Shown here in pieces: positions 8,246-40,425 of a stretch of 64,000 nt of DNA (the stretch's first letter is position 1; each line of letters opens with the position of its first letter). The notes under the pieces are model-generated. The model did not search any database, had not been told where the DNA came from, and saw only the letters and a list, made by a program, of their open reading frames with translations. Location: NCBI GenBank assembly GCA_002238805.1, contig MPNB01000007.1, forward strand, positions 2,536-66,535, given 5' to 3'. A program made the position numbers and the translations under genes. Source of the DNA: Rhodothermaceae bacterium bin80 (GTDB taxonomy: Bacteria; Bacteroidota; Rhodothermia; Rhodothermales; Bin80).

Positions 8246-8428
8246 TAGTTCGAAAGCAAGACAGGAGAGATACGACGGTTCAATTGATACTCCGTGTGGA
8301 TGATTGTTTTTTCGGTTCACCAAAGACATGAGGCTTGATAAAACACATGCCCGTTTTTCGTCAGATCTTGAACCTTTATCCGCAACCCTCGTAGTAGTGC
8401 CGGTCTGACAACCATAAAAGCAAAAAGA

Positions 8429-8656
8429 ATGGCCACAGTAGAACAACGCTTTAAATCTCTCCTTGAGCAGCACCTTGGCATAAGTGATCCAGGGGCAATG
8501 AATTCCACGCCCTCGGCCTTGGGGGTCAATTCCGTTGATGCCGTTGCTTTCCTGAAAGAAGTTTGTAGGGAGTTTAATGTTGACATTAAGCCTGAGGATG
8601 CTGCAAAATTTGAAAGCATGCAGGCGGCTGTCGACTATGTTGAAGCCACTGGTTAG
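8429..8656 (+). CDS. free-standing acyl/peptidyl carrier protein-like protein
   Basis: The product is 75 aa and acidic, with a four-helix-like layout. It has a phosphopantetheine-site-like motif LGVNSVDAVAFL, where the Ser sits in the position of the canonical DSL Ser. Confidence 0.6.
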   Translation: MATVEQRFKSLLEQHLGISDPGAMNSTPSALGVNSVDAVAFLKEVCREFNVDIKPEDAAKFESMQAAVDYVEATG

Positions 8657-9009
8657 TACTTGTTGGTGACGGGGTCTTATTTCTCGTAGATTCCTCCTTG
8701 GTGATTCTCCTAAGGAGGCGGGGGTCTCCTGTAGTATCGTTGCTTGGTAATAGTCAGCGAGGTCATATACCCCCTGTATCAGGGGGTATCGGGTCGAAGC
8801 GTATGCTGCTGGTTATGATGTGCGAGGAGTTTGGAGGAGTGCGGGAAGGTGCCGCTCGTTTGTGATCCTGAATCACTTTGTCGAAGAATGGCGAAACCAC
8901 TAACAGGAGCCAATGGCAATCGAGGGCAGGGATTGGGTCGTGTCTCGCCACAACTCTGCTCAGGAGGTACATCTGCATGACGGTTCCTAAGTCATTCAGA
9001 AATGCCCCG

Positions 9010-9402
9010 CCGGTATTTCAACGTGCCCAGGAGAATTTTCGGCGAGTCACCGATGATCGCTACACGCTCATTATTCCACAAGATAACAGCTTCCGAGCGC
9101 GGAATAATCTGCGAGAGCGCGATTTTGATTTAACTGAATGATCCAGTGCTACGAAAGTCCAACTCCTTTTGTCTGTACGGCTTGCCTTCGTTGAGACTCG
9201 AGAAACCAACTACCGCCTGCCAATCACTCTGGATGAAACGCTTACCAACAGCGATGACAAGCGTGCACGGGCAGCCATCAAAACGATGACAACCTTAGCT
9301 GCTGACCGTCAGGTATTTTATTTTACGGCTCAGCAGGATGAAGTAGGTAAGTGGAGAGAGTTCGTTCCCGAAGATCTCCTGAAAGTATATTCCATTGGGT
9401 AG
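9010..9402 (+). pseudogene. C-terminal remnant of an SMC/YhaN-like AAA ATPase, with an in-frame TGA
   Basis: ORFs 8878-9141 and 9169-9402 share one frame and are separated by a TGA at 9139-9141. The read-through sequence shows an ABC-type signature (SSATKVQLLLSVRLAFVE) and Walker B/D-loop (LPITLDETLTNSDDKR). The roughly 600-aa N-terminal part is missing. Confidence 0.55.
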
Positions 9403-9817
9403 GAAGTTGTAGCCAGAGATCTTAAAGCGGATGCTGATACAAGGGGTGGCCTTCAGTCAGGAATTATTAAGGCGAACATATTGCGGAGTGGCACGCCCAG
9501 AGGTTTTCAGAGGGCTCTACCGCAATTAGTGGGAAAGAAGCGGGCGTGAAGGAGATCACGAAGTGGCGGAGATGTTTCAACGCCATCTCGCTGGCGTGTG
9601 TAATGCACTTCTTCATGAACAATCCAGTGCCAGAGCCGAGCGAATCCATAGAAAGATCCATGAGGTCAGAACAGTAGGCAGAGGATACAGAAAATTCGTA
9701 AACTCTGGATTCGCAATTCTTTTTTCTGCTGAGACCTATATCCACAATATTCGCGGTAGAACCATGTTTTGTAACCACTACGAGGTTCTTGAGAAACTGA
9801 TCATTCACACTGAAAAC

Positions 9818-28977: not shown

Positions 28978-29757
28978 GTGCAGTTAAAAGATAAGACGAT
29001 AATTGTCACAGGGTCAGCAGGTGGTATAGGTCGAGCTATTGCACTTGCTTGCGTCCAGGAGGGTGCGCAAGTGCTTTTAGTGGATCGTAATGAGGTTGGC
29101 CTGCGTGAGACGAACGAGATATTGGGGCAGCGCAGCAGCGTGTATGTTGATGATCTATTGGATACCGCATCTGCGACTCGTATTGTCAAAGCTGCGGTGG
29201 ATCGTTTTGGCGTGCTTCATGGGATAGTGAATAATGCAGCGCTCTTAACAAGATCCAACATTGAAACCACGACCCCGGAGCTTCTTGCAAGGGTGTTTAA
29301 AGTAAACGCCAGGGCCCCAATGCTTCTGATCCAGGCAGGACTTAAGTACCTAACTGAAAGTAAGGGAAGTGTCCTCAATATCGGGTCAGTTAATGCGTAC
29401 TGTGGAGAGCCACCGCTGTTGGCCTACAGTATGTCCAAAGGTGCCTTGATGACCATGACGCGGAATCTGGGGGACAGCCTGCATGCGGAATACGGGATAC
29501 GGGTGAATCAGATCAATCCGGGTTGGGTTCTGACCGACCACGAGTTCGAGATCAAGGTGGCCGACGGATTACCGGAAAACTGGCCGAGCCGAATACCGCG
29601 CGATATAGCTCCCTCAGGAGGATTGGTCCCTCCTGAAACCATTGCTGCAGCTGCGGTCTATTGGCTGAGTGATAACTCCCGCCCAATAAGTGGTACGGTT
29701 ATGGATTTAGAACAATATCCTGTTATTGGACGGAATCCTGTTAAGGAGGTAGTGTGA
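28978..29757 (+). CDS. SDR family oxidoreductase
   Basis: Motifs are VTGSAGGIGRAIA (TGxxxGxG), NNAA and YSMSKGAL (YxxxK). The start codon is GTG. Confidence 0.9.
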   Translation: MQLKDKTIIVTGSAGGIGRAIALACVQEGAQVLLVDRNEVGLRETNEILGQRSSVYVDDLLDTASATRIVKAAVDRFGVLHGIVNNAALLTRSNIETTTPELLARVFKVNARAPMLLIQAGLKYLTESKGSVLNIGSVNAYCGEPPLLAYSMSKGALMTMTRNLGDSLHAEYGIRVNQINPGWVLTDHEFEIKVADGLPENWPSRIPRDIAPSGGLVPPETIAAAAVYWLSDNSRPISGTVMDLEQYPVIGRNPVKEVV

Positions 29758-30035
29758 TTCGTTTTTTTTGTGATCCTTAGGATGGCTAAGGGCCCCATGT
29801 AGGTGCAGCGAATGGGAACTCGACTTCCGTGGTGGAGATCTTCCGTTAGCCGGGTTCAAAGTTCAGGCGATTTGCGATTATTTGAGAATTGAGTTAAAAT
29901 TTTCAAGTACCGTTGCCGGCATGACAAACGAGTTTTCGATAATAACACAGCGACCACGAATGTATGGAGTGCAAGAATCAGGCAGGACTCATGAGCTGCC
30001 GTACGACAAGGGTAGGACTAGTTTAGTTGTCAGGT
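29262..30035. repeat. left copy of the direct repeat bracketing the defence island (intact 3' end of the SDR gene plus ~280 bp downstream)
   Basis: It aligns by eye with 39893-40425, for example ccggagcttcttgcaagg, ctcaatatcgggtca, atgtccaaaggtgc, gatggctaagggcccc, ctcgacttccgtggtggaga, agttttcgataat.acacagcg and atgagct.c.gta.gacaaggg. Confidence 0.8.
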
Positions 30036-30257: not shown

Positions 30258-32087
30258 TTATGTATCAGGTGAGATTCCCTCCTTTGTTGGCATGAAGTAG
30301 CACCAGAAATCTCCGGTCAATTGTTTGTCTATTTCGGGTAAATATCGTTCGAGATAAGTCCAGAAGTCTTCCTTCTTTGCCCATTCGGAAGGGTTCTGAA
30401 TTGGCCTATCATCGAGATACAGGATATTCTTGGCAGTTTTTGCGATCAGGGCAAGTTGGCTTACAAATGAGTCGTTGACAATTTGCTCTTTCCAGACCTT
30501 TCGGTAATTTAGGACCATATCTCTATTTTTCCCAAGAGAACTGGCTGTTGAGAGCGTATAGGCAACGATATTGGCCCGGTAGCCACCTCGATTGCGGTAC
30601 CAATCCTGACGTGAAACCATGCGTTCGGTAGCCTTGAAAACGATGCCGCGGGCAATGATCCGTTGATAATAATCTTTACTGAATTGTTCAGAAGATTCCT
30701 CCCACTTCTCTTCTATTCGCTGCATGTACCGGATGAAATTCTTCTGTGCTCCCAGATTTACCCAATGTGGTTTTTCATCCCAGACATTTTCGAATTTAGC
30801 GAGGTCGGTTTTTGTGATTTTTTTGGGATACTTAGCCCTGAAGCGCTTCTTTTCTGCATGTGTTAGTCTGGATTGTGCGTCTGCATACTGCCCCCGAGAG
30901 CGTTCATAGAACCACTTAGTTTCGTTTAGTTCACCTTCAATAGCGGGTGCCCATATGCGCCGCGAGAGTTTTTCTATTTCAATATGGAATGGATGGTTTG
31001 ATCGGAGATCCGGGATGCTTACTTTGTTCTGTGTATTCGCATATTTAGCGATATTCTGTACTACTTCTGGACCAAGGTTATCACTGATCTCGGAAATTTT
31101 CATCTGAACAAAAACCTGTGATAGATCCGGAGCATTTTTTAATTGGGATGTGTGATAAAGTGATACCATTGTCTGTCCTCCATTCACAATCTGGAGATCA
31201 CGAATATGAATGATTTGACTCCTGTCTTCATTGAGCTGTATATCCCGTGCGGTGGCGGTTATGCCATTGTTGTAGGCAAAAAATCTGTGTGGTTCCTTCA
31301 GAATCGTGTTACGAATTCCCTTGTTCACATTTCCGCGTGCCTGCAGGAAGCAACGCACGTTCTGCTCCAAAAGGCGGGCTCCATATTCTTCATACAAACC
31401 AGCTAGGATTTTTCCAGAAATAACGGCAAGATATGCTTGAAAAGCGTTGGAGCCCACATGTGCTCTAAGACAGGGTAACCCTCGTTCAAACACGGCAAAA
31501 AGGTCCACATCCAGTGGCTCCCGCCCGCCCCGTGAACAGTGTTGGCGATGCAGGCGTGAAATATCCCAGATAGAGTAAACCGCTTTAACACCGCTCAAAT
31601 CCTGATTTTCGATTGCCTTACTGTGAGTACTGAGATATCGCTCGGAAGATAAAATGAAGTTGACGCGTCGAATCCGGTCCTTTTGATCATAGATCCTGCG
31701 AGCCAATTGATACTCAGGTGATGTTTCATCAAAATCCAGGTAGAGTAGATCATTTTTCGAAGTGAGGAAAAACCGGCGAATTTGTTTGAACCCATTTTCA
31801 TAGTCTCTCTTATTGAGTGGTTCAAGGGTTTGTCTGTTCTCAAAATCTGCAAGATGTAAATCCAGGATAGTCTTCCCTTCATGGAAAAAGTATCCGTCGA
31901 CCTTCATACTACCCCTACGGCCTCGACGGTAATGGCAGTGTTCAAATCCATGTAAATCACCAGTTTCAATCAACTCTTCCGAGACTTTGTCAAGAAAAGC
32001 ATTGCGCTGAAACTCCCCATGGGTTTTTGCATCAATCTGTAATTGCTGATGGAACTCCTTAAAATACTCGTCACGTGTCATTTGCAT
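30258..32087 (-). CDS. AIPR (abortive-infection phage-resistance) family protein
   Basis: The 609-aa product has the typical AIPR N-terminus (TRDEYFKEFHQQLQIDAKTHGEFQRNAFLDKVSEELIETGDL) and core (FAYNNGITATA, IVNGGQT). Confidence 0.8.
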   Translation of the reverse strand: MQMTRDEYFKEFHQQLQIDAKTHGEFQRNAFLDKVSEELIETGDLHGFEHCHYRRGRRGSMKVDGYFFHEGKTILDLHLADFENRQTLEPLNKRDYENGFKQIRRFFLTSKNDLLYLDFDETSPEYQLARRIYDQKDRIRRVNFILSSERYLSTHSKAIENQDLSGVKAVYSIWDISRLHRQHCSRGGREPLDVDLFAVFERGLPCLRAHVGSNAFQAYLAVISGKILAGLYEEYGARLLEQNVRCFLQARGNVNKGIRNTILKEPHRFFAYNNGITATARDIQLNEDRSQIIHIRDLQIVNGGQTMVSLYHTSQLKNAPDLSQVFVQMKISEISDNLGPEVVQNIAKYANTQNKVSIPDLRSNHPFHIEIEKLSRRIWAPAIEGELNETKWFYERSRGQYADAQSRLTHAEKKRFRAKYPKKITKTDLAKFENVWDEKPHWVNLGAQKNFIRYMQRIEEKWEESSEQFSKDYYQRIIARGIVFKATERMVSRQDWYRNRGGYRANIVAYTLSTASSLGKNRDMVLNYRKVWKEQIVNDSFVSQLALIAKTAKNILYLDDRPIQNPSEWAKKEDFWTYLERYLPEIDKQLTGDFWCYFMPTKEGISPDT

Positions 32088-33058
32088 TTGTTCATATTCC
32101 AGATAGTTTCAATTGGACAAATAAAAGGTTCTGCGGCATCAATCTGTAGTGTATATCTTACATTTTGAAGCCCTCTAGACAGTTCGGATCGGACAATTCG
32201 AGGGAACTCATCAGTAATCCGATAGACACATGTTTCAGCAACTTGAAATGAAGGGCTGTCGTAGTGCTGGAGTTCTGCATAACCTGCTGTAGCCAGTTTA
32301 ATCTGATACTCATCGAGTGTAGAATCCCCGCTCAGATCGTTTTCGATTCTCCGTACCATTTCGTTGAGAGACAGGGCAGCGGGTAACTCAGTGCTCTCAA
32401 TAATGCGTTCTACCGTCAAAAACAGCCACTCGGCTGGGCTTTCCAACTGGTCCTCAGAGGAGATATGGACAAGATTAGGACCTTTGTTCGAAATTGCTTT
32501 TATCTCCACAGCCGCGTTCTCGAATACAAAGTCCTGATTCCCACCCTTTGGTCCGATCCATGCATCCAACGCATCACTCTGGCTGAGCTTATTGATGTAG
32601 AGGGACCGAAGAAAGTACAGCTCTGCAAAAAGGCCTCTCACCTCAGCGGGCGACAAAAGTTGAGGTCTTTCCCCAGCAAGAAACCGTTGCCAGCGCTTCA
32701 ATTGATTCAGTGCGGTCGTCAGAGCAGTTCTGGAGTCAGACGTATTGCTGAGACTCCGCACCAGCGTTTTGCATAGAGCATGGAACAGGTCAAGATTGAT
32801 ATGGCTGACCAATGTTATGATCAAGGTTTGTGCATGGCTTCTGGGGCGCTGCCGAAGATCAATATCAATTCCCTGAATGTTCATATTTGCTTTGAAGAAA
32901 GCATTTCGGTGATCTCCGTCAAGTTCAGCAACCAGGAGACAGTGTCCGTGTACGTCTTTACCCCAATAGATGGGAAGCAGTCCATCAGCATTGATTCTTC
33001 GGACGTTGTAGTCTACATTTGGCTGCTGAATGTCGTCCCAAGGAGTGGAATAGGCCAT
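32078..33058 (-). CDS. PD-(D/E)XK motif protein (DUF4420-like nuclease fold)
   Basis: The 326-aa product carries a candidate nuclease motif, GGNQDFVFENAAVEIKAIS (D...E.K). It overlaps the AIPR gene start by 10 nt. Confidence 0.7.
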   Translation of the reverse strand: MAYSTPWDDIQQPNVDYNVRRINADGLLPIYWGKDVHGHCLLVAELDGDHRNAFFKANMNIQGIDIDLRQRPRSHAQTLIITLVSHINLDLFHALCKTLVRSLSNTSDSRTALTTALNQLKRWQRFLAGERPQLLSPAEVRGLFAELYFLRSLYINKLSQSDALDAWIGPKGGNQDFVFENAAVEIKAISNKGPNLVHISSEDQLESPAEWLFLTVERIIESTELPAALSLNEMVRRIENDLSGDSTLDEYQIKLATAGYAELQHYDSPSFQVAETCVYRITDEFPRIVRSELSRGLQNVRYTLQIDAAEPFICPIETIWNMNKCK

Positions 33059-33097: not shown

Positions 33098-35779
33098 TTA
33101 ATCTTCACCGACATCGAAATCATCATCGCGCATGCCATGGGTGGCAAATAATTCCAACCGGATGTAAACTGGATTTGCTACGATCTCCACCTCGGTGATA
33201 TAATCATCTGGAGGAAAGCTCATGCCAATTGTTGGAATACGGATATTTTCCAGTGACGAACCGGTTTTTCCAGTCAAGACATGTATCATAAGAAGGGGGC
33301 ATGTTCGAGTTGCACGATAATCCGCGTCAATGACATTTCCTACGCGATTATTCTGTTTTGCTCGATCAAAGGCTTCATACACTTGTTCCTTTGAAAGTCC
33401 AAGTCCTTCGTCTCCTCGGCTTGCGGCCCGACCTTTATTCAAAACCCACTTCCCGTCTTTAATCGTAGATTTTCTCTCTTGGGCTCCCAAGTGTAGTAAT
33501 TTGGATGGATCCTCTCTACTTTCAATCGAAACCAGAACGACATCACATGTCTGATATTTATCAGATGTTTTCCGCAAATAATTGATAACACCGGTCTTTT
33601 TGTGTTCGAGAGACTTATCAGTGGTGAATTGAGTTAGGAAGCGCTCAACCTTCTCTGTAGGAACATCGCGCACGATCCATCCCTTAGTACTTCCCTTACC
33701 CGGTCTCTTTGCGCGCTCACGGTTTTCCTCTGTCCACGTCTCCAATATGAGTTCTTCATTTTTGGAATTCAGAACAGGGTCCGTGGGCAGAATTGTGAAT
33801 TCCTGAAGTCGTCCGCTATAATTATACCGCAGAGTGCGCTTCTCCGCATCTTGCATTTTCCTTGGTGAAGTAATCAGAAGCTGATCGGGATGCGTTTCCA
33901 CATATAGTCCAAATTCCCTGGGTGTCTTGCCCATTTGGCGCATATCGCGAACCTGATCTACCAATTCGCGGGTAGCTTCAGCTACATGTGAATACCACGA
34001 AATTGCATCTCCAGAGAGATGGACACGGCAAAGGTCGTCGTATCCAAGCCGGTATCCAAACCATCGTCCCATCTGCATCAGGGTATCGTACATACGGGTG
34101 TTGCGATAGACATAGCTCACGCATAATCCTTCAATAGTGAGTCCACGCGAAAGACTCAATCCTCCAACTGCGATGGCTGTAAGTCCACTTCCACTGGCTT
34201 CATGTTTCTTATAGTCCAACCTGTCATCAGACTGACCGTTAATCATAAACAGGCGGGTACTGGTTGCTGCTTTTTGGAGTTCAGCCTTGACATCTACCCA
34301 AGAGTGACCACAATACGGGAATGCCCGGTCGAAAGCCTTTTTCAGCTTTTGCATGCTTGCATTGCGGGAGGAAATTGGATCCCGCATTGCGTAATTCGCC
34401 TGCACAGCCTCTTTGACTTCTCTCAGATATATGCTTACCAAATCACGGATTTGTTTTTGCACGTTGACAAATCGAGACACATTGATCATCATGGAACAGT
34501 GGTGTGCCTGATAGCCCCGTAGGTTTCGAATGGCTCTTGCAACGATGAATTCGTTTATGGCTGTGTATAGGCTGGCAGGGAGCACAGAAATTTCATGATC
34601 TTTCTTGTGGCTCAAAGGCAATACATCATCGCAGTCGGTGACCGGGATGGTCACCTGACTGGGGACATCTTCAGTAAGAAACACTCTCTCTGGTCCAAAG
34701 TAGGTGGTTGGCGCATCTAGGAAGTAGATAAAATCGCGGGGGAACAGATCATCTCTCACCTCGTCATCGTAAGCATCCGGGTTAATGAAAATGTTTGCAA
34801 ACGGTGTGGCGGTGTATCCTACGAAGCTGGACTTTGCAAACAGTCTCAGGATCTGTCGGATTAACCGATTGGTCCGGGTGGGATCATGCTCAAGTTTGTT
34901 CGTGTTGATCGAAGCATGATCTGCTTCGTCATCAATCAGAAGCATCGGGACTGTTTCGATTTGGTCAGCCCCTTGGGCGTTCATATCCTTCAGCCAGTGA
35001 TAGAGGGAGGTCAACACATTCACGTTTTTTTTGACGACCAGAATAATCGGTCTGCTAAAGTCATTGAGTCGCCACCCGCTTTGTCGGGCTACTTGCTTAT
35101 TAAAATCGTTGCTAACGTTAGTAAGTGTTACTGGGTGAGGGAATTGAGAGGTTCGCCCCAGATCAGTTTTTCCAACGCCAATTATTTGTCTTGATTCCGA
35201 GTGCCGCCCTACAAATCCCTCGTCAATGCGCTGTTGAGTCTGGCTTCGGAGCACATTATGGATTCCGGCGATCACAATGATGAACTTGTATCCTGCGTCC
35301 GCAGCCCGGGTGATCAGTGCAAGATAGTTTGCTGTTTTCCCCGACTGTACATTGCCAATCACCAAGCCACGCCGGTCCCATATGCCATCAGAGATCGGGT
35401 TCTGCAACATTCCGAGGATTTTCTCACTCACGTCTCGCAGTGACTGGCACATCCTATTAGACCATCCAGAAGAGTCCAAATAGTCGAAATAAGCATCCGA
35501 ATAGATCCAATCAATGTTTGTGCGTTTGTTAATCCAGTCAGAATCATGGCCGGTGTCCTTCTGAATCAGGGAAACTCCACTTCCCATCCGGGTAGTGATT
35601 GCCATAAGTGCCCGGTCAACGATCGGTTTCAGGTTTCCTCCATATCCAAAGGGTTTTGCAAGCTGCTCTGCTTTGGATCTGGCTTCCTCATTTGATGGCG
35701 TAGAGTCAAAAGCATGATTTAGAGCCTTAATCAGCGTGCTCACAAGGTCATTTTCCAATTCAAGCGTATGTGCCATCAT
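33098..35779 (-). CDS. Z1 domain protein (SF2 helicase/ATPase-like)
   Basis: Walker A is GNVQSGKTANYLALI and the DEAD-like Walker B is LLIDDEADHAS. The preferred start is the ATG at 35779, which forms an ATGA overlap with the upstream stop at 35776-35778. The track ORF begins at a TTG at 35818. Confidence 0.8.
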   Translation of the reverse strand: MMAHTLELENDLVSTLIKALNHAFDSTPSNEEARSKAEQLAKPFGYGGNLKPIVDRALMAITTRMGSGVSLIQKDTGHDSDWINKRTNIDWIYSDAYFDYLDSSGWSNRMCQSLRDVSEKILGMLQNPISDGIWDRRGLVIGNVQSGKTANYLALITRAADAGYKFIIVIAGIHNVLRSQTQQRIDEGFVGRHSESRQIIGVGKTDLGRTSQFPHPVTLTNVSNDFNKQVARQSGWRLNDFSRPIILVVKKNVNVLTSLYHWLKDMNAQGADQIETVPMLLIDDEADHASINTNKLEHDPTRTNRLIRQILRLFAKSSFVGYTATPFANIFINPDAYDDEVRDDLFPRDFIYFLDAPTTYFGPERVFLTEDVPSQVTIPVTDCDDVLPLSHKKDHEISVLPASLYTAINEFIVARAIRNLRGYQAHHCSMMINVSRFVNVQKQIRDLVSIYLREVKEAVQANYAMRDPISSRNASMQKLKKAFDRAFPYCGHSWVDVKAELQKAATSTRLFMINGQSDDRLDYKKHEASGSGLTAIAVGGLSLSRGLTIEGLCVSYVYRNTRMYDTLMQMGRWFGYRLGYDDLCRVHLSGDAISWYSHVAEATRELVDQVRDMRQMGKTPREFGLYVETHPDQLLITSPRKMQDAEKRTLRYNYSGRLQEFTILPTDPVLNSKNEELILETWTEENRERAKRPGKGSTKGWIVRDVPTEKVERFLTQFTTDKSLEHKKTGVINYLRKTSDKYQTCDVVLVSIESREDPSKLLHLGAQERKSTIKDGKWVLNKGRAASRGDEGLGLSKEQVYEAFDRAKQNNRVGNVIDADYRATRTCPLLMIHVLTGKTGSSLENIRIPTIGMSFPPDDYITEVEIVANPVYIRLELFATHGMRDDDFDVGED

Positions 35780-37260
35780 GTCTGCCTCCCCCCCAGATAG
35801 TTCTCTACGATGTTCCAATGCTGATCAAAGAGATGTGTCGTTCGGATGAAATCACGAAACTTGTCTGCGTCAGAGCATATACGCTCCGGAAGAGTGTCGC
35901 TCAGCAGCTGAAGTCGCTCCATGACGATTTTTTCTTTTCTGCTTAACGTGTGGACCTGCTTCGGATCATCATTCCAGTCAATGCTGATCATCTCCACTGG
36001 AAGATCTTCTCCAATTCTATCGAGGAGCAGCTTCAGTTGCGATTGCCCGACTTGATTCAGTTGCTGATCCAATTCCTGTACCAGCGGATGATCTGCATTA
36101 AGCACATAGCGGACTCCTTTGGTCGAATCAGAGAACCTCTCCCACAGTGGATATGGATTCTTTTCCGAGATTAGCCGCTGTCCCCGTCCCGTGTAGACCC
36201 TCTTGCTTCGGATAGTAATTTTATCCAAAATCTGGTTTAGACGATCACGGACCGGGCGGGGAGGCTGAACGCGCGATTTTTTAATATCAATGGTCCACCA
36301 GCGATCAAGAGAGCTGGGAAAATCAATCCGAACTCGTGCCAGTTGGGCAGCTTTATTTTTGGAAATAAGCCGAAACCATCCTCCCCATGCAACCAGACGG
36401 CAATTCCGATACACATAAACTCCCTGGTTTTCAAAAAAACTGCTGTAAGTCTTGTAGAGGTCGTATTTCTGCACAGATAGTTTGCTGTGATGGGGTAGGA
36501 TATATCCTTGCAGCCGAACCTCATGAGATCCAATGGAAATGCGTTCAAGCGGTAGACGCTGCGTAGCTGTATGATCTCGACAAAATGGATCAAAAGCCTT
36601 AACACGGTGCCCATTTACGGATATTTTCAACCGACTGCACCAAGGGACATCTCCCTTCATGAATTGGTGAAACACCAGCGCAAGATGTTGTGTAACCGCA
36701 GCCAATTTCTTGCTTACAATCCGTTGCCGTTCCTGTCCTTTGGTGTTTCCGAAAAGCCGATCCAGATTACGCCAAAGAACTAGCGTCCCCTGCTCGGGTA
36801 ATTCATCAAAGAATGGGAGGCTGTAAATCTCTTCCTCATCCAGAAGGGAGATAATCCAGTCGTCCGAGTGTTCCACTACATCAAGATTCCATTCGGCCGC
36901 GTTTAGCTGGCCGTTTTTTCGACTCACAACGGTAAGATGCCTGCATTGGGATAAGGAGGCTGTTTTCAGACCCAGTCCAAACTTTCCGAGATCATGAGAA
37001 GATCTCATTCGATTTCGGTCAGCACCGCCATGCCGCATGGCATGGATGATTTCATTATTCCCCATTCCCTGGCCATTATCAATGATGGCCAGCGTAGGCT
37101 GGTCGGCATCCGGGATGCAGTAAACATCTATTTTTCCTGCGCCGGCTGAAATGCTGTTATCCACCAGATCCGCGATCGCAGTTTCGAGTGAGTACCCGAT
37201 ATCACGCATGGACGCAGACAGGGATGCTGCACTTGGCGGGAGGCGTATTTCACGTGGCAT
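35776..37260 (-). CDS. GHKL (HATPase_c_3, MORC/MutL-like) ATPase
   Basis: Bergerat-fold motifs are present: N-box IADLVDNSISAGA, G1 IIDNGQGM and G2 GKFGLGLKTAS. Confidence 0.85.
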   Translation of the reverse strand: MPREIRLPPSAASLSASMRDIGYSLETAIADLVDNSISAGAGKIDVYCIPDADQPTLAIIDNGQGMGNNEIIHAMRHGGADRNRMRSSHDLGKFGLGLKTASLSQCRHLTVVSRKNGQLNAAEWNLDVVEHSDDWIISLLDEEEIYSLPFFDELPEQGTLVLWRNLDRLFGNTKGQERQRIVSKKLAAVTQHLALVFHQFMKGDVPWCSRLKISVNGHRVKAFDPFCRDHTATQRLPLERISIGSHEVRLQGYILPHHSKLSVQKYDLYKTYSSFFENQGVYVYRNCRLVAWGGWFRLISKNKAAQLARVRIDFPSSLDRWWTIDIKKSRVQPPRPVRDRLNQILDKITIRSKRVYTGRGQRLISEKNPYPLWERFSDSTKGVRYVLNADHPLVQELDQQLNQVGQSQLKLLLDRIGEDLPVEMISIDWNDDPKQVHTLSRKEKIVMERLQLLSDTLPERICSDADKFRDFIRTTHLFDQHWNIVENYLGGRQT

Positions 37261-37681
37261 GTTCGACCTCCTGCAGGTGGCATGCTACCCGGCGAGTGGC
37301 CTGTTCCAGGTCCGCATTGATTTCACACTCCCAGACAATGATGATCTGCCAGTCTAGGTTTTTGAGTGCCTCCACATTCCGTTTGTCCCGCTCGAGTGTA
37401 CTGCGGAATTTTTTCAGCCAGAAGGCCTGATTGGATTTTGGGGTGGCCGCGTGCTTACAACCATCGTGGCGATGCCAGAAACAACCGTGTACGAAGACGA
37501 CCGTACGGTATTTATGTAGCACGATATCGGGCTTTCCTGGCAGTTTTGTCTCATGAACCCTAAACCGGAACCCGAGTCTATGAAGGCTTGACCGAAGTTT
37601 GCACTCTGGTTCCGTATTACGTCCCTTGATGCGGGACATATTCCAGCTGCGTTGCTTTTTGGAGAGGTGATCTGCCATCAT
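37250..37681 (-). CDS. vsr: very short patch repair endonuclease
   Basis: Vsr hallmarks are present: RSWNMSRIKGRNTEPE, LPGKPDIVL and VFVHGCFWHRH. Its start forms an ATGA overlap with the methyltransferase stop at 37678-37681. Confidence 0.9.
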   Translation of the reverse strand: MMADHLSKKQRSWNMSRIKGRNTEPECKLRSSLHRLGFRFRVHETKLPGKPDIVLHKYRTVVFVHGCFWHRHDGCKHAATPKSNQAFWLKKFRSTLERDKRNVEALKNLDWQIIIVWECEINADLEQATRRVACHLQEVEHAT

Positions 37682-39232
37682 ATTCTCCCTCTGGCAACAT
37701 CCAGCACGTCTGCGACGACATCCCCAATTTGGCGAGCTAAATATGGCGGTACAGCATTCCCGATCTGGCGATACTGTTCGGTTCGGGGTCCCTCAAATTT
37801 GTAATTGTCCGGGAACGTCTGCAGCCGGGCTGCTTCACGCACAGTCAGGCTCCTGCATTGTGCCAGATCATAGTGGATATAGTAATGACCATCTTTAGCA
37901 ATGTGCGCTGTGATTGTGGAGGCAACCCGCTTTGGCAACTGCACCTTGAATCGGTCCACGAATTTTTCCCCTACCTTTCCATCTACAACATCACGGTGAT
38001 TCGGCAACAGAGCCGGTGGAAAGTCCTGTAATTTTGGACTCCTGCCGGTCACATGAGCAAAGGCTGCCGCGAACGCATAGCGCCTGAGGTCTGCCGTCAT
38101 GTGTGCACGCGCATCGTGCCCCGTCAATGTGCGTATGCGCGGATCATATATAAATTCCACTGCTCCACCTGTATGCACTGACTGCGAGGGATAAGAGGTT
38201 GCCTTACGCTTCAGCTGGCGTGGAGTGAATTTGAAGAGAGTCCCCACTTTGCTGAGTATGGCTTCAGTGTGAGGATGATCTGTAAAATCTACTTCCTCCA
38301 AGGAGCTAATTGCTTTTGTCCATGCCTCAGGAGTATCTGGCTTATCTGTAATTCCACTGCGAATTTTGGGCAGTTGCCCGATAATTTGCTCCACGGTTGG
38401 AGGTTTTTCACATGTTAGCTGCGGAGGTTGAATATCAAGATCGCTACGGATTCCCAAGGCGAAGACTCGATGTCGGGCTTGTGGTACACCATGCAATTCG
38501 GACTTGATCAGGAAGTCATGTGGCTTAATTCCATCGAACAAGCCGACTTGATTTGGGCAGTAAAGTCCGTGCAGCTCATACGTCGGAGATATATCCGTAG
38601 ATGCCCCCAATGCACGGCATGGATTCCTGAGATCTTCCCAGATCATCTGGATCATGGACTTCCCGTTATATTTAGCAGAAAGGAGTCCCTTCACATTCTC
38701 CATCACGAAGAGGGGAGGTCTGTGCTCAGCAATAACCCTCAGGTATTCTTTGTAGAGAAGGTGGCGCTCGTCCTGCTCGAATCCGGGCATTTTTTGCATA
38801 CGCGACCGGCCTGCTACTGAGTATGCTTGGCATGGTGGCCCGCCGACGAGCACCCATAGGGGGACATTTGCTAATCGCTCAGCGATGATCTTGCGGACAC
38901 TGTCATGATTTTGAGGTCCGAGTGTGATATGCAGAGCAGACTTCTCGGCATGATGTGAGGCGGAAGGATGAGACTCAAAGAGTTCAGCAGAGTCAATAGC
39001 GCCGTCCAGATAGCGATAATAGGCTTCTGGGGCTTTACCAAGTGGGAATGATCTAAAGAAATGTCTTAGGCGAAGCGTCTTATGCGCCCAAACGTCTTTT
39101 TCAATAGATGCGGCTAGAAAAAATCGGGGGGGGGGTAAATTGTTTATTGCTGCCGGTGGCGGCAGTAAACCCTTCGCCCAATCCGCCAGGTCCTGCGAAA
39201 AGATCAACGACAGGATATGGTGATATTTCCAT
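37678..39232 (-). pseudogene. dcm: DNA (cytosine-5)-methyltransferase, reading frame split at a C10 tract (OFF phase, inactivated, or homopolymer sequencing error)
   Basis: The downstream frame carries motif IV GGPPCQAYS, ENV (MENVKGL) and motif X QIGNAVPP. Motif I (VVDLFAGPGGLGEGF) lies in a 43-codon ORF that starts at the ATG at 39232 in a different frame. The two frames meet at the C10 run (G10 on the plus strand, 39126-39135). Confidence 0.85.
39126..39135. repeat. G10/C10 homopolymer tract inside the 5' end of dcm (slipped-strand candidate)
   Basis: The tract was read directly as aaatc gggggggggg taaat. Confidence 0.9.
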
Positions 39233-39892
39233 TAAAAACAGAATTGACGGGGCGTGCAGTTATCCGTGTGCTCTGGCAATATAGTGAATTTAGATACTTA
39301 GCAGCAATCCGGGCATGAGTTTAATTGAGTTCAGAATCCGCCGTGAGCCGACTTCGATCCATGGGTCCATTAGAATTTTTCGGCGCTTCGAAGACGCACC
39401 GGAATTCGGGATTTCTCGAGGGGATGCTTTCATGTCCAGATAGTGTCAATCCGAGGACTATTTCTCGTGCCATTCTGCCAAAAGGGCTTCCATCATATGT
39501 TTCGACAGAGGCCTGATTTGGGAAGATACGGATCGCATTTTACCGTAGTCTAAGTTCGAAAAACGGACGCGCAAGCACCTTATACTACGGAACTGGCCTG
39601 GAACTAGATGGGGATATTCGGCACGACTGTGGTCTGATCACCTCCCTCGTCCAATATCTTCACTGCTTGGGGGCTCGAATTTGTCTGGAATGATTCAAGA
39701 ATTCTGTGTGCTTCTTCATTGGGTTTTACAACGAAATAGCGATGCCGCTGTGCGCTAGGAAACGACTCGGGATCATGTGGGACAACTCCAGAGGTACACC
39801 CGAAATCACCCTTGCAACCCCATGGAGCTCGTGCTGCTGCAGCCCGGTAAAAAACGTCCACTAGGTCCAGTGCGATTCCCCATCTGCAACCA

Positions 39893-40425
39893 TAAAACCG
39901 CAACACCGGAGCTTCTTGCAAGGATTTTCAACGTAACACCAGAACTCCAATGTTTCTGATCTAGGTAGGACTTGAGTATCTAACGGAAAGCAAAGGAGTG
40001 TTCTCAATATCGGGTCAATCCATGCGCACTGTGGGGGAGCTACTACTGCACTGTTGGTTTACGGTATGTCCAAAGGTGCTTGATGAGTATGACGCGAAAT
40101 CCTGTTGAGGAGGTAGTATGATCCGTTTTTTGTGATCCTCAGGATGGCTAAGGGACCCGTGTAGGTGTAGCAAATGTGAACTCGACTTCCGTGGTGGAGA
40201 TATTATGTTAGCCGGGTTCAAGCTCGGGTATTTCGTGATTATCGAGAATTGGATAGAAAAATCTTCAAGTGTCGTTGAGTATGACGAACAAGTTTTCGAT
40301 AATGACACAGCGGGCATGAATGCATGCAGCAAAAGAATCAGGAAGGGTTCATGAGCTACTGTATGACAAGGGTTGGGCCTTGCCGGCTAGTTAGGCGTAA
40401 AAGAGAATAGAGCAGTTGTCAGACT
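39893..40425. repeat. right, decayed copy of the direct repeat (SDR 3'-end remnant with a 270-bp internal deletion plus downstream sequence)
   Basis: It is colinear with 29262-30035 at roughly 75-80% identity by eye. The segment 29468-29737 of the left copy is missing, and the junction lies at the microhomology cggaatc (29461-29467 and 29731-29737). The remnant frame reads ...KTATPELLARIFNV..., compared with TTTPELLARVFKV in the intact gene. Confidence 0.8.

What the first reader, a model, noticed from the sequence alone, without database searches (positions are those of the whole stretch)
39101..39232. C10 homopolymer splits the methyltransferase: candidate phase-variable switch at the head of the defence operon
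The ORF-track product starts at a TTG (39207) and lacks SAM-binding motif I. Motif I is present upstream (MEISPYPVVDLFAGPGGLGEGF..., ATG at 39232) but in another frame, which terminates at the TGA at 39103-39101. The two frames meet at the C10 run (plus-strand G10, 39126-39135). By my hand count, a tract of 9 or 12 C would fuse them into one protein of about 517 aa (..NKQFTPPRFFLAASIEKD..). Homopolymer tracts at the 5' end of R-M methyltransferase genes are a classical slipped-strand phase-variation device. Here the switch would also sit at the start of a six-gene coupled operon. Alternatively this is an inactivating mutation, which would be interesting because the putative nuclease genes downstream remain intact. 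It could also be a homopolymer sequencing error.
Basis: partly seen in the sequence, partly recalled or inferred. Interest (0 to 1): 0.7.

Follow-up and report, generated by a model that had tools for sequence, protein, structure and literature searches.

The report
Phase-variable poly-C switch in defence methyltransferase
A run of ten C's near the start of a DNA-methyltransferase gene, the first gene of an anti-phage defence operon, is a slippage-prone tract whose length differs between otherwise identical relatives and turns the gene on or off; this copy is in the off state, and this is a known kind of switch found in a new setting.

Summary
A C10 run (minus strand, 39126-39135) separates SAM-binding motif I (ATG 39232, stop TGA 39103-39101) from the rest of an otherwise intact C5-cytosine methyltransferase. 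C9 or C12 would give a 517 or 518 aa enzyme. The gene heads a six-gene operon, Dcm-Vsr-MzaB-MzaC-MzaD-MzaE.

Comparative data favour a hypermutable contingency tract over an assembly error or a decaying pseudogene.
- Uncultivated Rhodothermales relatives carry poly-C at exactly this site, with lengths 9, 10, 12 and 13, and longer in a more distant lineage.
- One contig pair is identical over 4.6 kb except for C9 (in frame) versus C10 (out of frame).
- Contigs from NGUY21-1 scaffolds and SRR135870xx runs, in one genomic context, differ by C10, C12 or C13.
- About half of the long-tract alleles are frame-broken at this site. None of about 20 short-tract alleles is (Fisher p about 1e-4).
- Both halves of the gene evolve under purifying selection, each in its own frame (dN/dS 0.06-0.15).
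- The window's own C10 allele recurs in at least 13 contig records.

Two things remain unexplained. Every off allele carries exactly one extra C, and off is the consensus in the window's lineage. Reversibility within a clone, and the effect on the downstream nuclease genes, are inferred and not shown. This is a new member of a known kind.

The parts
39126..39135 (-). Poly-C tract (C10; G10 on the plus strand). This is the hypermutable repeat, here in the off (+1 nt) register.
   Evidence: Orthologues carry C9, C10, C12 or C13 at the same site.
39101..39232 (-). Upstream reading frame. ATG 39232 opens the N-terminal 32 codons with SAM-binding motif I (DLFAGPGGLGEGF). The frame then runs through the tract to the premature TGA at 39103-39101.
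   Evidence: Motif I aligns to M.HaeIII residues 4-20. dN/dS in this frame is 0.06-0.15.
37678..39126 (-). Downstream reading frame of the C5-cytosine methyltransferase (482 codons from CGA at 39126). It holds motifs IV (GGPPCQ), VI (ENV), VIII (QARHR) and X (GNAVP) and has no other lesion.
   Evidence: PF00145 at 8.5e-45; PDB alignments; dN/dS 0.09-0.16.
37250..37681 (-). Vsr very-short-patch T:G mismatch endonuclease. Its start overlaps the Dcm stop (ATGA).
   Evidence: PF03852 at 2.2e-30; junction sequence.
35776..37260 (-). MzaB, a GHKL/MORC-type ATPase (HATPase_c_3).
   Evidence: PADLOC MzaB at 2.7e-80.
33098..35818 (-). MzaC, a helicase-like protein with a Z1 domain. The true start is probably the ATG that overlaps the MzaB stop.
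   Evidence: PF10593 at 6.5e-73; PADLOC MzaC at 1.5e-129; junction.
32078..33058 (-). MzaD, a DUF4420 predicted PD-(D/E)XK nuclease.
   Evidence: PF14390 at 2.1e-62; PADLOC MzaD.
30258..32087 (-). MzaE, an AIPR-family protein.
   Evidence: PF10592 at 1.8e-94 and PF22879; PADLOC MzaE at 1.8e-72.

Best explanation
The C10 run is a hypermutable simple-sequence (contingency) tract in the first gene of a Dcm-Vsr-MzaBCDE defence operon.

How it works: slipped-strand mispairing during replication adds or removes C's. With 9 or 12 C's, motif I is joined in frame to the catalytic body through a 2- or 3-proline loop between helix A and strand 2 of the methyltransferase fold, and a full 517 or 518 aa enzyme is made. 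With 10 or 13 C's, translation ends after 43 codons and no functional enzyme is made. The window is in this off phase.

Shown here:
- the tract and the frame arithmetic;
- length polymorphism at this site among otherwise identical or near-identical contigs;
- restriction of frame breakage to long-tract lineages;
- purifying selection on both frames.

Inferred, not shown:
- The switch is reversible at high frequency within a clone.
- Because the genes overlap or abut, and 1.4 kb of mRNA is left untranslated, the off phase also lowers expression of Vsr and MzaB-E through lost translational coupling or Rho polarity. The whole methylation-plus-restriction module would then be switched together, which would explain why off is tolerated with intact nuclease genes.
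For: 1. The same site carries poly-C in relatives, with differing lengths.
- Window lineage: C10.
- L001 and L086: C10. L085: C9.
- L088 and L089: C10. L090 and L091: C12. L087: C13.
- L092, L093 and L006: C10.
- L002: C13 and L044: C11, both apparently long-read assemblies.
- The P0015 lineage: C13-16.

2. Otherwise identical or near-identical contigs differ at the tract. L085 and L001 have 0 mismatches over 4,639 bp and one gap, which is the tract (C9 on, C10 off). L091 and L088 have 3 mismatches plus the tract gap (C12 on, C10 off). Within the gene itself both pairs are 100% identical.

3. In the protein census, alleles with 2 or more Pro codons at the site are about 12 on and 12 off. Alleles with 1 or none are about 20 on and 0 off. 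Fisher p is about 8e-5.

4. In-frame variants with 3, 4 and 5 Pro occur within one 90% identity cluster.

5. Between off alleles diverged by dS 0.4-1.5, dN/dS is 0.06-0.15 both for the 32 N-terminal codons in frame 0 and for the 480 or so downstream codons in frame +1.

6. The window allele is reproduced 100% over 7.5 kb in JGI and ENA assemblies, and the 509 aa off product is on at least 13 contigs.

7. Homologues outside this clade have no homopolymer at the site. The tract is therefore a lineage-specific gain in a tolerant loop.

8. Poly-C/G tracts with a modal length of 9, insertion bias at G8 and deletion bias at G11 are documented phase-variation devices (PMC3401435). That would explain toggling between 9 and 10.
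Against: - No read-level data were available, so heterogeneity within one population and reversibility are not shown.
- In the window's own lineage every assembly has C10. No on variant was found in its 90% cluster. Several of those assemblies may derive from the same reads.
- All off alleles read from DNA are in the same (+1) register and none is in the +2 register. A purely random walk does not predict this, though a mutational bias could produce it.
- Switching off a protective methyltransferase alone would normally be lethal. Polar co-silencing is the proposed way out and is untested. The sigma-70 promoter scan was uninformative (14 found, 14.8 expected).
Confidence: 0.75

Rival explanations
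1. Recoding. The one-extra-C allele is not truly off. A fraction of ribosomes shifts +1 on the slippery CCC_CCC_CCC_C run, helped by tRNA-Pro re-pairing and poly-proline stalling, and makes a low level of full-length methyltransferase. RNA polymerase slippage is a less likely route. The frameshifted allele would then be a maintained, functional low-expression state.
For: - Every off allele read from DNA needs exactly a +1 shift: about 9 Illumina-type alleles in distinct lineages, plus L044. None needs +2.
- C10 is the consensus in the window lineage and in L001, L086, L092, L093, L088, L006 and L081, despite up to 30% protein divergence.
- Both frames are under purifying selection.
- CCC-C is an established +1 slippery motif for tRNA-Pro (PMC4519876, PMC7577736).
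Against: - In-frame C9 and C12 alleles exist on otherwise identical or near-identical DNA, so the frameshift is not a fixed requirement.
- There is no stop or obvious hungry codon at the shift site; the 0-frame stop lies 7 codons after the tract.
- The downstream RNA is not structured (z = +1.1), and there is no Rfam hit.
- Transcriptional slippage mainly inserts bases at A/T runs (PMC5574713), whereas rescue here needs a deletion or a +2 insertion on a C run.
- The 9/10 bias can be explained by known poly-G/C mutational patterns (PMC3401435).
Confidence: 0.12
2. Fixed inactivating mutation. In this lineage the methyltransferase is simply a young pseudogene, and the defence island is on its way to decay.
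For: - All contigs of the window lineage carry C10, and no on allele is present in its cluster.
- Relatives show irreversible inactivation of the same operon. ISL3 lies in Dcm in L007. An IS110-family element lies at the tract in L020, which also has an insertion in MzaB. IS21 lies in MzaC in L001.
Against: - The gene has no second lesion, and neither do the five downstream genes.
- The same one-base state is seen in lineages separated by dS of 0.4 to more than 1.5, while dN/dS stays at 0.06-0.15 in both frames. A long-dead gene would not show this.
- On and off alleles coexist on otherwise identical or near-identical DNA in sister lineages.
Confidence: 0.1
3. Homopolymer sequencing or assembly error. 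The true tract is in frame.
For: - Long G/C homopolymers are error-prone.
- In the P0015 lineage, contigs break or turn into poly-G/N junk at a C13-16 tract.
- Apparently long-read MAGs (L044, L097) show extra frameshifts.
Against: - C10 is reproduced at 100% identity over 7.5 kb in JGI and ENA (megahit) assemblies, and in a 97% identical independent contig, LXNI01000198.
- Assemblers do return C9 and C12 elsewhere. In two cases the submitter's ENA scaffold and the Logan contig show the same tract length.
- No other gene in the window is split at a homopolymer. The only other runs of 8 or more are two T8 runs, and the one inside a gene leaves it intact.
Confidence: 0.03

Closest known systems
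Poly-G/C phase-variable restriction-modification genes of host-adapted bacteria, for example Campylobacter jejuni cj0031 Type IIG (PMC4889913, PMC3401435), Helicobacter pylori R-M genes (PMC4209511) and Neisseria NlaIV (bioRxiv 10.64898/2026.01.10.698759)
   Same: An intragenic homopolymeric G/C tract of about 9-10 nt lies near the 5' end. One-base length changes switch the reading frame on or off. Lengths cluster at 9-10. The affected gene belongs to a DNA-methylation-based defence system.
   Different: Here the gene is a C5-cytosine (Dcm-type) methyltransferase that heads a Vsr plus MzaBCDE operon, not a Type I, III or IIG enzyme. The hosts are uncultivated Rhodothermales known only from metagenomes. 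The evidence is comparative, not experimental. In gonococcal NlaIV the methyltransferase tract is almost always on, whereas here off predominates.
MzaABCDE anti-phage system, reported as validated in E. coli (named as a recently identified nuclease-domain system in bioRxiv 10.1101/2022.06.16.496414; PADLOC models). That Gao et al. 2020 named it is from my own memory and was not checked here.
   Same: MzaB (GHKL ATPase), MzaC (Z1), MzaD (DUF4420 nuclease) and MzaE (AIPR) are all present, in the same order, with strong PADLOC hits.
   Different: No MzaA was found. The operon instead starts with Dcm and Vsr. This methylase-linked architecture is widespread: 26 of 47 loci with enough flank have it. 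The validated E. coli system has no methyltransferase, so the role of methylation in self-protection here is inferred.
Phasevarions (phase-variable Type III Mod or Type I methyltransferases that control regulons)
   Same: Random on/off switching of a DNA methyltransferase through a simple repeat. It could in principle also change the methylome and gene expression.
   Different: The classical cases are N6-adenine enzymes whose Mod subunit is also needed for restriction. No regulon evidence exists here.
+1 frameshift-prone CCC-C sites and frameshifts maintained in homopolymers (PMC4519876, PMC7577736, PMC5009743)
   Same: A run of CCC codons followed by C, and an off allele that needs exactly a +1 shift.
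   Different: In-frame alleles coexist on identical DNA, and no stimulatory element was found.

Membership tests
Simple-sequence-repeat contingency (phase-variable) locus | A mononucleotide repeat long enough to slip (about 8 or more G/C), inside the ORF or promoter | tested here: met
   C10 at 39126-39135, codons 33-36 of the gene.
Simple-sequence-repeat contingency (phase-variable) locus | Repeat-number changes toggle between a full-length and a truncated product | tested here: met
   C9 gives 517 aa, C12 gives 518 aa, and C10 gives a 43-codon stop. Natural C9 and C12 alleles encode full-length proteins.
Simple-sequence-repeat contingency (phase-variable) locus | Repeat length is polymorphic among otherwise (near-)identical genomes | tested here: met
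   L001 and L085 have 0 mismatches in 4.6 kb apart from C10 versus C9. L088, L091, L090 and L087 carry C10, C12, C12 and C13.
Simple-sequence-repeat contingency (phase-variable) locus | The gene is otherwise intact and under purifying selection | tested here: met
   dN/dS is 0.06-0.15 in both frames, and there are no other lesions.
Simple-sequence-repeat contingency (phase-variable) locus | High-frequency, reversible switching within a clonal population | not testable with these tools
   This needs reads, amplicons or culture. Only assembly consensus sequences were available.
C5-cytosine DNA methyltransferase (PF00145) | Conserved motifs I (FxGxG), IV (PCQ), VI (ENV), VIII (QxRxR) and X (GNAVP) in one polypeptide | tested here: inconclusive
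   All motifs are present and aligned to M.HaeIII and M.HhaI in the C9 reconstruction. As assembled (C10), motif I is in a different frame from motifs IV-X.
Mza defence system (PADLOC) | MzaB, MzaC, MzaD and MzaE encoded together | tested here: met
   PADLOC E-values are 2.7e-80, 1.5e-129, 1.9e-20 and 1.8e-72. The genes are contiguous on one strand.
Mza defence system (PADLOC) | MzaA present | tested here: not met
   None of the six operon products (nor the four neighbouring gene products scanned) matched an MzaA model. Dcm and Vsr occupy the 5' position. This is a methylase-linked variant.
Programmed +1 ribosomal frameshift site | A slippery site that allows P-site re-pairing in the +1 frame | tested here: met
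   ACC CCC CCC CCG, where CCC-C allows tRNA-Pro to re-pair (PMC4519876).
Programmed +1 ribosomal frameshift site | The frameshift requirement is conserved in all functional orthologues, with a stimulator (stop or rare codon at the site, or another element) | tested here: not met
   In-frame alleles exist on identical DNA. The 0-frame stop is 7 codons after the tract. No RNA structure or Rfam element was found.
Phasevarion | The phase-variable methyltransferase changes expression of a set of genes | not testable with these tools
   No methylome or transcriptome data were available.

The most novel reading that the evidence does not exclude
The one-extra-C allele, which dominates natural populations, may be a deliberately leaky state and not a true off state. 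+1 slippage of tRNA-Pro on the CCC-C run, favoured by poly-proline stalling, would supply just enough methyltransferase to keep the chromosome protected while the operon is tuned down. The two-extra-C register would be a true null and lethal, because the Mza nuclease module would attack unmethylated self DNA. That would explain why only the +1 register is ever seen. DNA-level phase variation and translational recoding would then act together at one tract.
Probability: 0.15. Interest if true: 0.7.

Novelty: new member of a known kind. Interest (0 to 1): 0.5.

Why it matters
Homopolymer phase variation of methyltransferases is textbook biology for a handful of host-adapted pathogens. This case extends it in three ways.
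- It occurs in a different enzyme class, a Dcm-type C5 methylase paired with Vsr.
- It occurs in a different and poorly understood defence system, the methylase-linked form of MzaBCDE.
- It occurs in uncultivated Rhodothermales, with the evidence drawn from population-level metagenome assemblies.

It also raises a concrete, testable puzzle about Mza biology. Natural populations are mostly in the methylase-off phase and yet keep the nuclease genes intact. Three explanations are possible. The module may be silenced as a unit. The Mza effectors may not need methylation to spare self DNA. The off allele may be leaky.

On the practical side, annotation pipelines will keep calling this gene as a 5'-truncated methyltransferase or a pseudogene. 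Long versions of the tract also break short-read assemblies.

Tried and rejected
- **Metagenome DNA-pattern scan.** The scan for the tract plus its downstream codons returned only one contig, LXNI01000198, which is 97% identical and also C10.
- **Sigma-70 promoter and terminator scan of the operon.** It gave 14 promoter-like sites against 14.8 expected. This is uninformative, and these organisms may use other promoter types.
- **Rfam search of the whole window and folding of the 106 nt downstream of the tract (z = +1.1).** There was no RNA element, so there is no support for a structured recoding signal.
- **Search for a restart codon.** No ATG, GTG or TTG lies in the downstream frame within 110 codons, apart from the TTG at 39207 upstream of the tract. 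A truncated active enzyme is therefore not plausible, and motif I would be missing anyway.
- **C/G composition of the untranslated 1.4 kb.** One C-rich, G-poor 100-nt window (39001-38902, C 33 and G 16) lies just after the premature stop. This is compatible with a Rho loading site but is weak evidence.
- **Search for an off allele in the +2 register.**
  - P0010 (L097) turned out to have a short C5 tract and a separate G4 frameshift, in a contig whose name suggests a 7x long-read assembly.
  - P0149 (L094-96) was garbled by assembly at the tract.
  - P0013 could not be located.
- **tRNA scan.** The window has no tRNA gene, so the island is not integrated at a tRNA.

Full report
**1. The observation**

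On the minus strand the sequence reads ATG(39232) GAA ATA TCA ... CAA TTT ACC CCC CCC CCG ATT TTT TCT AGC CGC ATC TAT TGA(39103-39101). The C run has ten bases, at 39126-39135. The upstream frame encodes MEISPYPVVDLFAGPGGLGEGF..., which is SAM-binding motif I of C5-cytosine methyltransferases.

The long ORF listed mechanically (37678-39207, TTG start) is in the +1 frame. It begins LIFSQDLADWAKGLL and so lacks motif I. From the CGA codon that starts on the last C of the run, this frame is open for 482 codons. Deleting one C gives a 517 aa protein (...NKQFTPPRFFLAASIEKD...), and adding two gives 518 aa.

The run is the only G or C homopolymer of 8 or more in the 64 kb. Such a run is expected 0.08 times per window.

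**2. What the genes are**

The reconstructed protein matches PF00145 (8.5e-45). It aligns to M.HaeIII and M.HhaI over motif I (residues 9-25), motif IV GGPPCQ, motif VI ENV, motif VIII and motif X GNAVP. The tract encodes the end of a loop between the helix that follows motif I and the strand that carries motif II (RFFLAASIE). This placement is inferred from that alignment.

Five further genes follow on the same strand with overlaps or short gaps (ATGA at Dcm/Vsr, an 11-nt overlap at Vsr/MzaB by the ORF calls, ATGA at MzaB/MzaC, a 10-nt overlap at MzaD/MzaE):
- Vsr (PF03852);
- a GHKL ATPase (HATPase_c_3; PADLOC MzaB, 2.7e-80);
- a Z1-domain helicase-like protein (MzaC, 1.5e-129);
- a DUF4420 PD-(D/E)XK protein (MzaD);
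- an AIPR protein (MzaE, 1.8e-72).

All five are full length against their profiles. MzaABCDE is reported as an anti-phage system validated in E. coli, whose MzaD cuts phage DNA in vitro (bioRxiv 10.1101/2022.06.16.496414). That system has no methyltransferase.

The methylase-linked form seen here is widespread. In 26 of 47 homologous loci with enough flank, MzaB-E follow the methyltransferase in the same order. These loci span Proteobacteria, Chloroflexi, Spirochaetes and methanogenic archaea.

**3. Comparative evidence on the tract**

A scan of one genome per species found the closest relatives (70-86% protein identity) in uncultivated Rhodothermales. In these the same codon position carries poly-C of different lengths. 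A protein search and cluster look-ups added many metagenome alleles, and DNA was fetched for most of them.

| Lineage | Tract and state |
|---|---|
| Window lineage (L082, L083, L084 are 100% identical to the window over 7.5 kb; L081 is 97% identical) | C10, off |
| L001 lineage | L001 and L086 C10, off; L085 C9, on. Proteins P0002, P0129 and P0130 read ...TPPRFF..., on |
| One population in contigs from NGUY21-1 scaffolds and SRR135870xx runs, same genomic context | L088 and L089 C10, off; L090 and L091 C12, on; L087 C13, off |
| L092, L093, L006 | C10, off |
| Assemblies that appear to be long-read | L002 C13, on; L044 C11, off |
| More distant lineage (56% identity) | C13-16, and contigs break at the tract |
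| Relatives with C4-C6 or no run | Always in frame |

Homologues outside the clade have no homopolymer at the site.

**4. Why this indicates a hypermutable tract**

- L085 and L001 are identical at all 4,639 aligned positions except for one gap, which is the tract. L091 and L088 differ by three substitutions plus the tract. The tract therefore changes far faster than the surrounding DNA.
- In the allele census, about 12 of 24 alleles with two or more proline codons at the site are frame-broken there. None of about 20 alleles with one or no proline codon is (Fisher p about 8e-5). One 90% cluster contains in-frame variants with 3, 4 and 5 prolines.
- Between off alleles separated by dS 0.4-1.5, dN/dS is 0.06-0.15. 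This holds both for the 32 codons upstream of the tract, read in their own frame, and for the roughly 480 codons downstream, read in theirs. A gene that had been dead for that long would not show this.
- The predicted on-phase protein of the window exists in nature in the sister lineage (P0002 and P0129, 87% identical).

Together these meet the comparative criteria for a contingency locus. Reversibility within a clone could not be tested.

**5. Alternatives**

*Assembly error.* This is very unlikely. The window's exact allele recurs in JGI, ENA, NCBI and Logan records, on at least 13 contigs. An independent contig that is 97% identical also has C10. Assemblers return C9 and C12 elsewhere. In two cases the submitter's ENA scaffold and the Logan contig show the same tract length. 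I could not verify how many of the window-lineage records come from independent reads.

*Simple pseudogene.* All window-lineage records are off, and relatives show irreversible hits: ISL3 in Dcm in L007, an IS110-family element at the tract in L020, and IS21 in MzaC in L001. The selection signal and the on/off pairs that are otherwise identical or near-identical argue that the tract state itself is not a terminal lesion.

*Recoding.* This alternative deserves attention. Every off allele read from DNA is in the one-extra-C register, which needs exactly a +1 shift on a CCC-C run, and none is in the two-extra register. CCC-C is a documented +1 slippery site for tRNA-Pro (PMC4519876, PMC7577736). 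However:
- in-frame alleles coexist on otherwise identical or near-identical DNA;
- no stop or obvious stimulator sits at the site;
- the downstream RNA is unstructured, and there is no Rfam hit;
- transcriptional slippage mainly inserts bases at A/T runs (PMC5574713).

The register bias can also arise from the length-dependent insertion and deletion bias known for poly-G/C tracts, which have a modal length of 9, insertions at G8 and deletions at G11 (PMC3401435). I keep leaky +1 frameshifting as a minority reading.

**6. How it most likely works**

Shown: slippage-prone C tract lengths of 9 or 12 give a full enzyme, and lengths of 10 or 13 give a 43-codon product.

Inferred: the switch sits at the head of a tightly packed operon and leaves 1.4 kb of mRNA untranslated. 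One C-rich, G-poor stretch lies just after the premature stop. The off phase probably reduces expression of Vsr and MzaB-E as well, so methylation and restriction would be switched together. This would explain why populations whose consensus is off keep intact nuclease genes.

Two other explanations remain possible. The Mza effectors may not need methylation to spare self DNA, as in the methylase-less E. coli system. Alternatively, the off allele may be leaky.

**7. Novelty**

Homopolymer phase variation of R-M methyltransferases is well known (PMC3401435, PMC4889913, PMC4209511, bioRxiv 10.64898/2026.01.10.698759). Full-text searches found no report of it for Mza-type systems. I regard this as a new member of a known kind. 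Its modest added interest comes from three things: the predominance of the off phase, the single-register bias, and the fact that it makes the role of methylation in Mza systems directly testable.

Noticed in passing
window 29237-30016 and 39868-40376: The roughly 9.9-kb Mza island is bracketed by a diverged direct repeat of about 780 bp (72-91% identity). The left copy is the 3' half of the short-chain dehydrogenase gene (28978-29757) plus its downstream spacer. The right copy is a gene fragment lying next to the nitrilase-family gene. This looks like the scar of island insertion or exchange. No integrase or tRNA gene was seen.
   Followed up: partly
L020 7953-9998: In this apparently long-read Rhodothermales MAG, an IS110-family transposase element (ORF 8390-9658) sits exactly at the poly-C tract. 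Motif I lies 2 kb upstream, and a C10 run directly follows the insertion. MzaB in the same locus is split by a further 5.4-kb insertion.
   Followed up: partly
L007 8637-9923; L001 6189-8500: Other relatives carry IS hits in the operon. An ISL3 transposase lies inside the Dcm gene of L007, with Vsr and MzaB-E still intact. An IS21 istA/istB pair lies inside MzaC of L001, which also has the C10 off tract.
   Followed up: yes
L094 about 2780-2945; L095 1-111; L096 1-25: In the 56%-identical lineage the tract is C13-C16. Short-read contigs end there or degrade into poly-G and N-filled junk. Long versions of this tract break assemblies, and their lengths cannot be trusted.
   Followed up: partly
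All off alleles (window 39126-39135; L001, L006, L086-L089, L092, L093, L044): Every frame-broken allele carries exactly one extra nucleotide relative to an in-frame length (C10 or C13; C11 in L044, whose flank differs). No allele with two extra nucleotides was found.
   Followed up: partly
L097 about 810-830: A relative with a short C5 tract has a separate frameshift at a G4 run (GCTTGGGGCG) 13 codons downstream, in a contig whose name suggests a 7x long-read assembly. This is probably a sequencing error and not biology.
   Followed up: no
window 35025-35032: A T8 run (A8 on the coding strand) lies inside the MzaC gene, which is intact. I did not check whether its length varies among relatives.
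   Followed up: no
L087-L091, L093 versus window, L082-L086 and L092: The same operon sits in different chromosomal neighbourhoods in different Rhodothermales lineages. In some it lies next to the nitrilase-family and M20 peptidase genes. In others it lies next to Pyr_redox_2 and DUF5128 genes. In L092 an extra AAA_14/DUF4143 gene lies between. This suggests the island is mobile.
   Followed up: no
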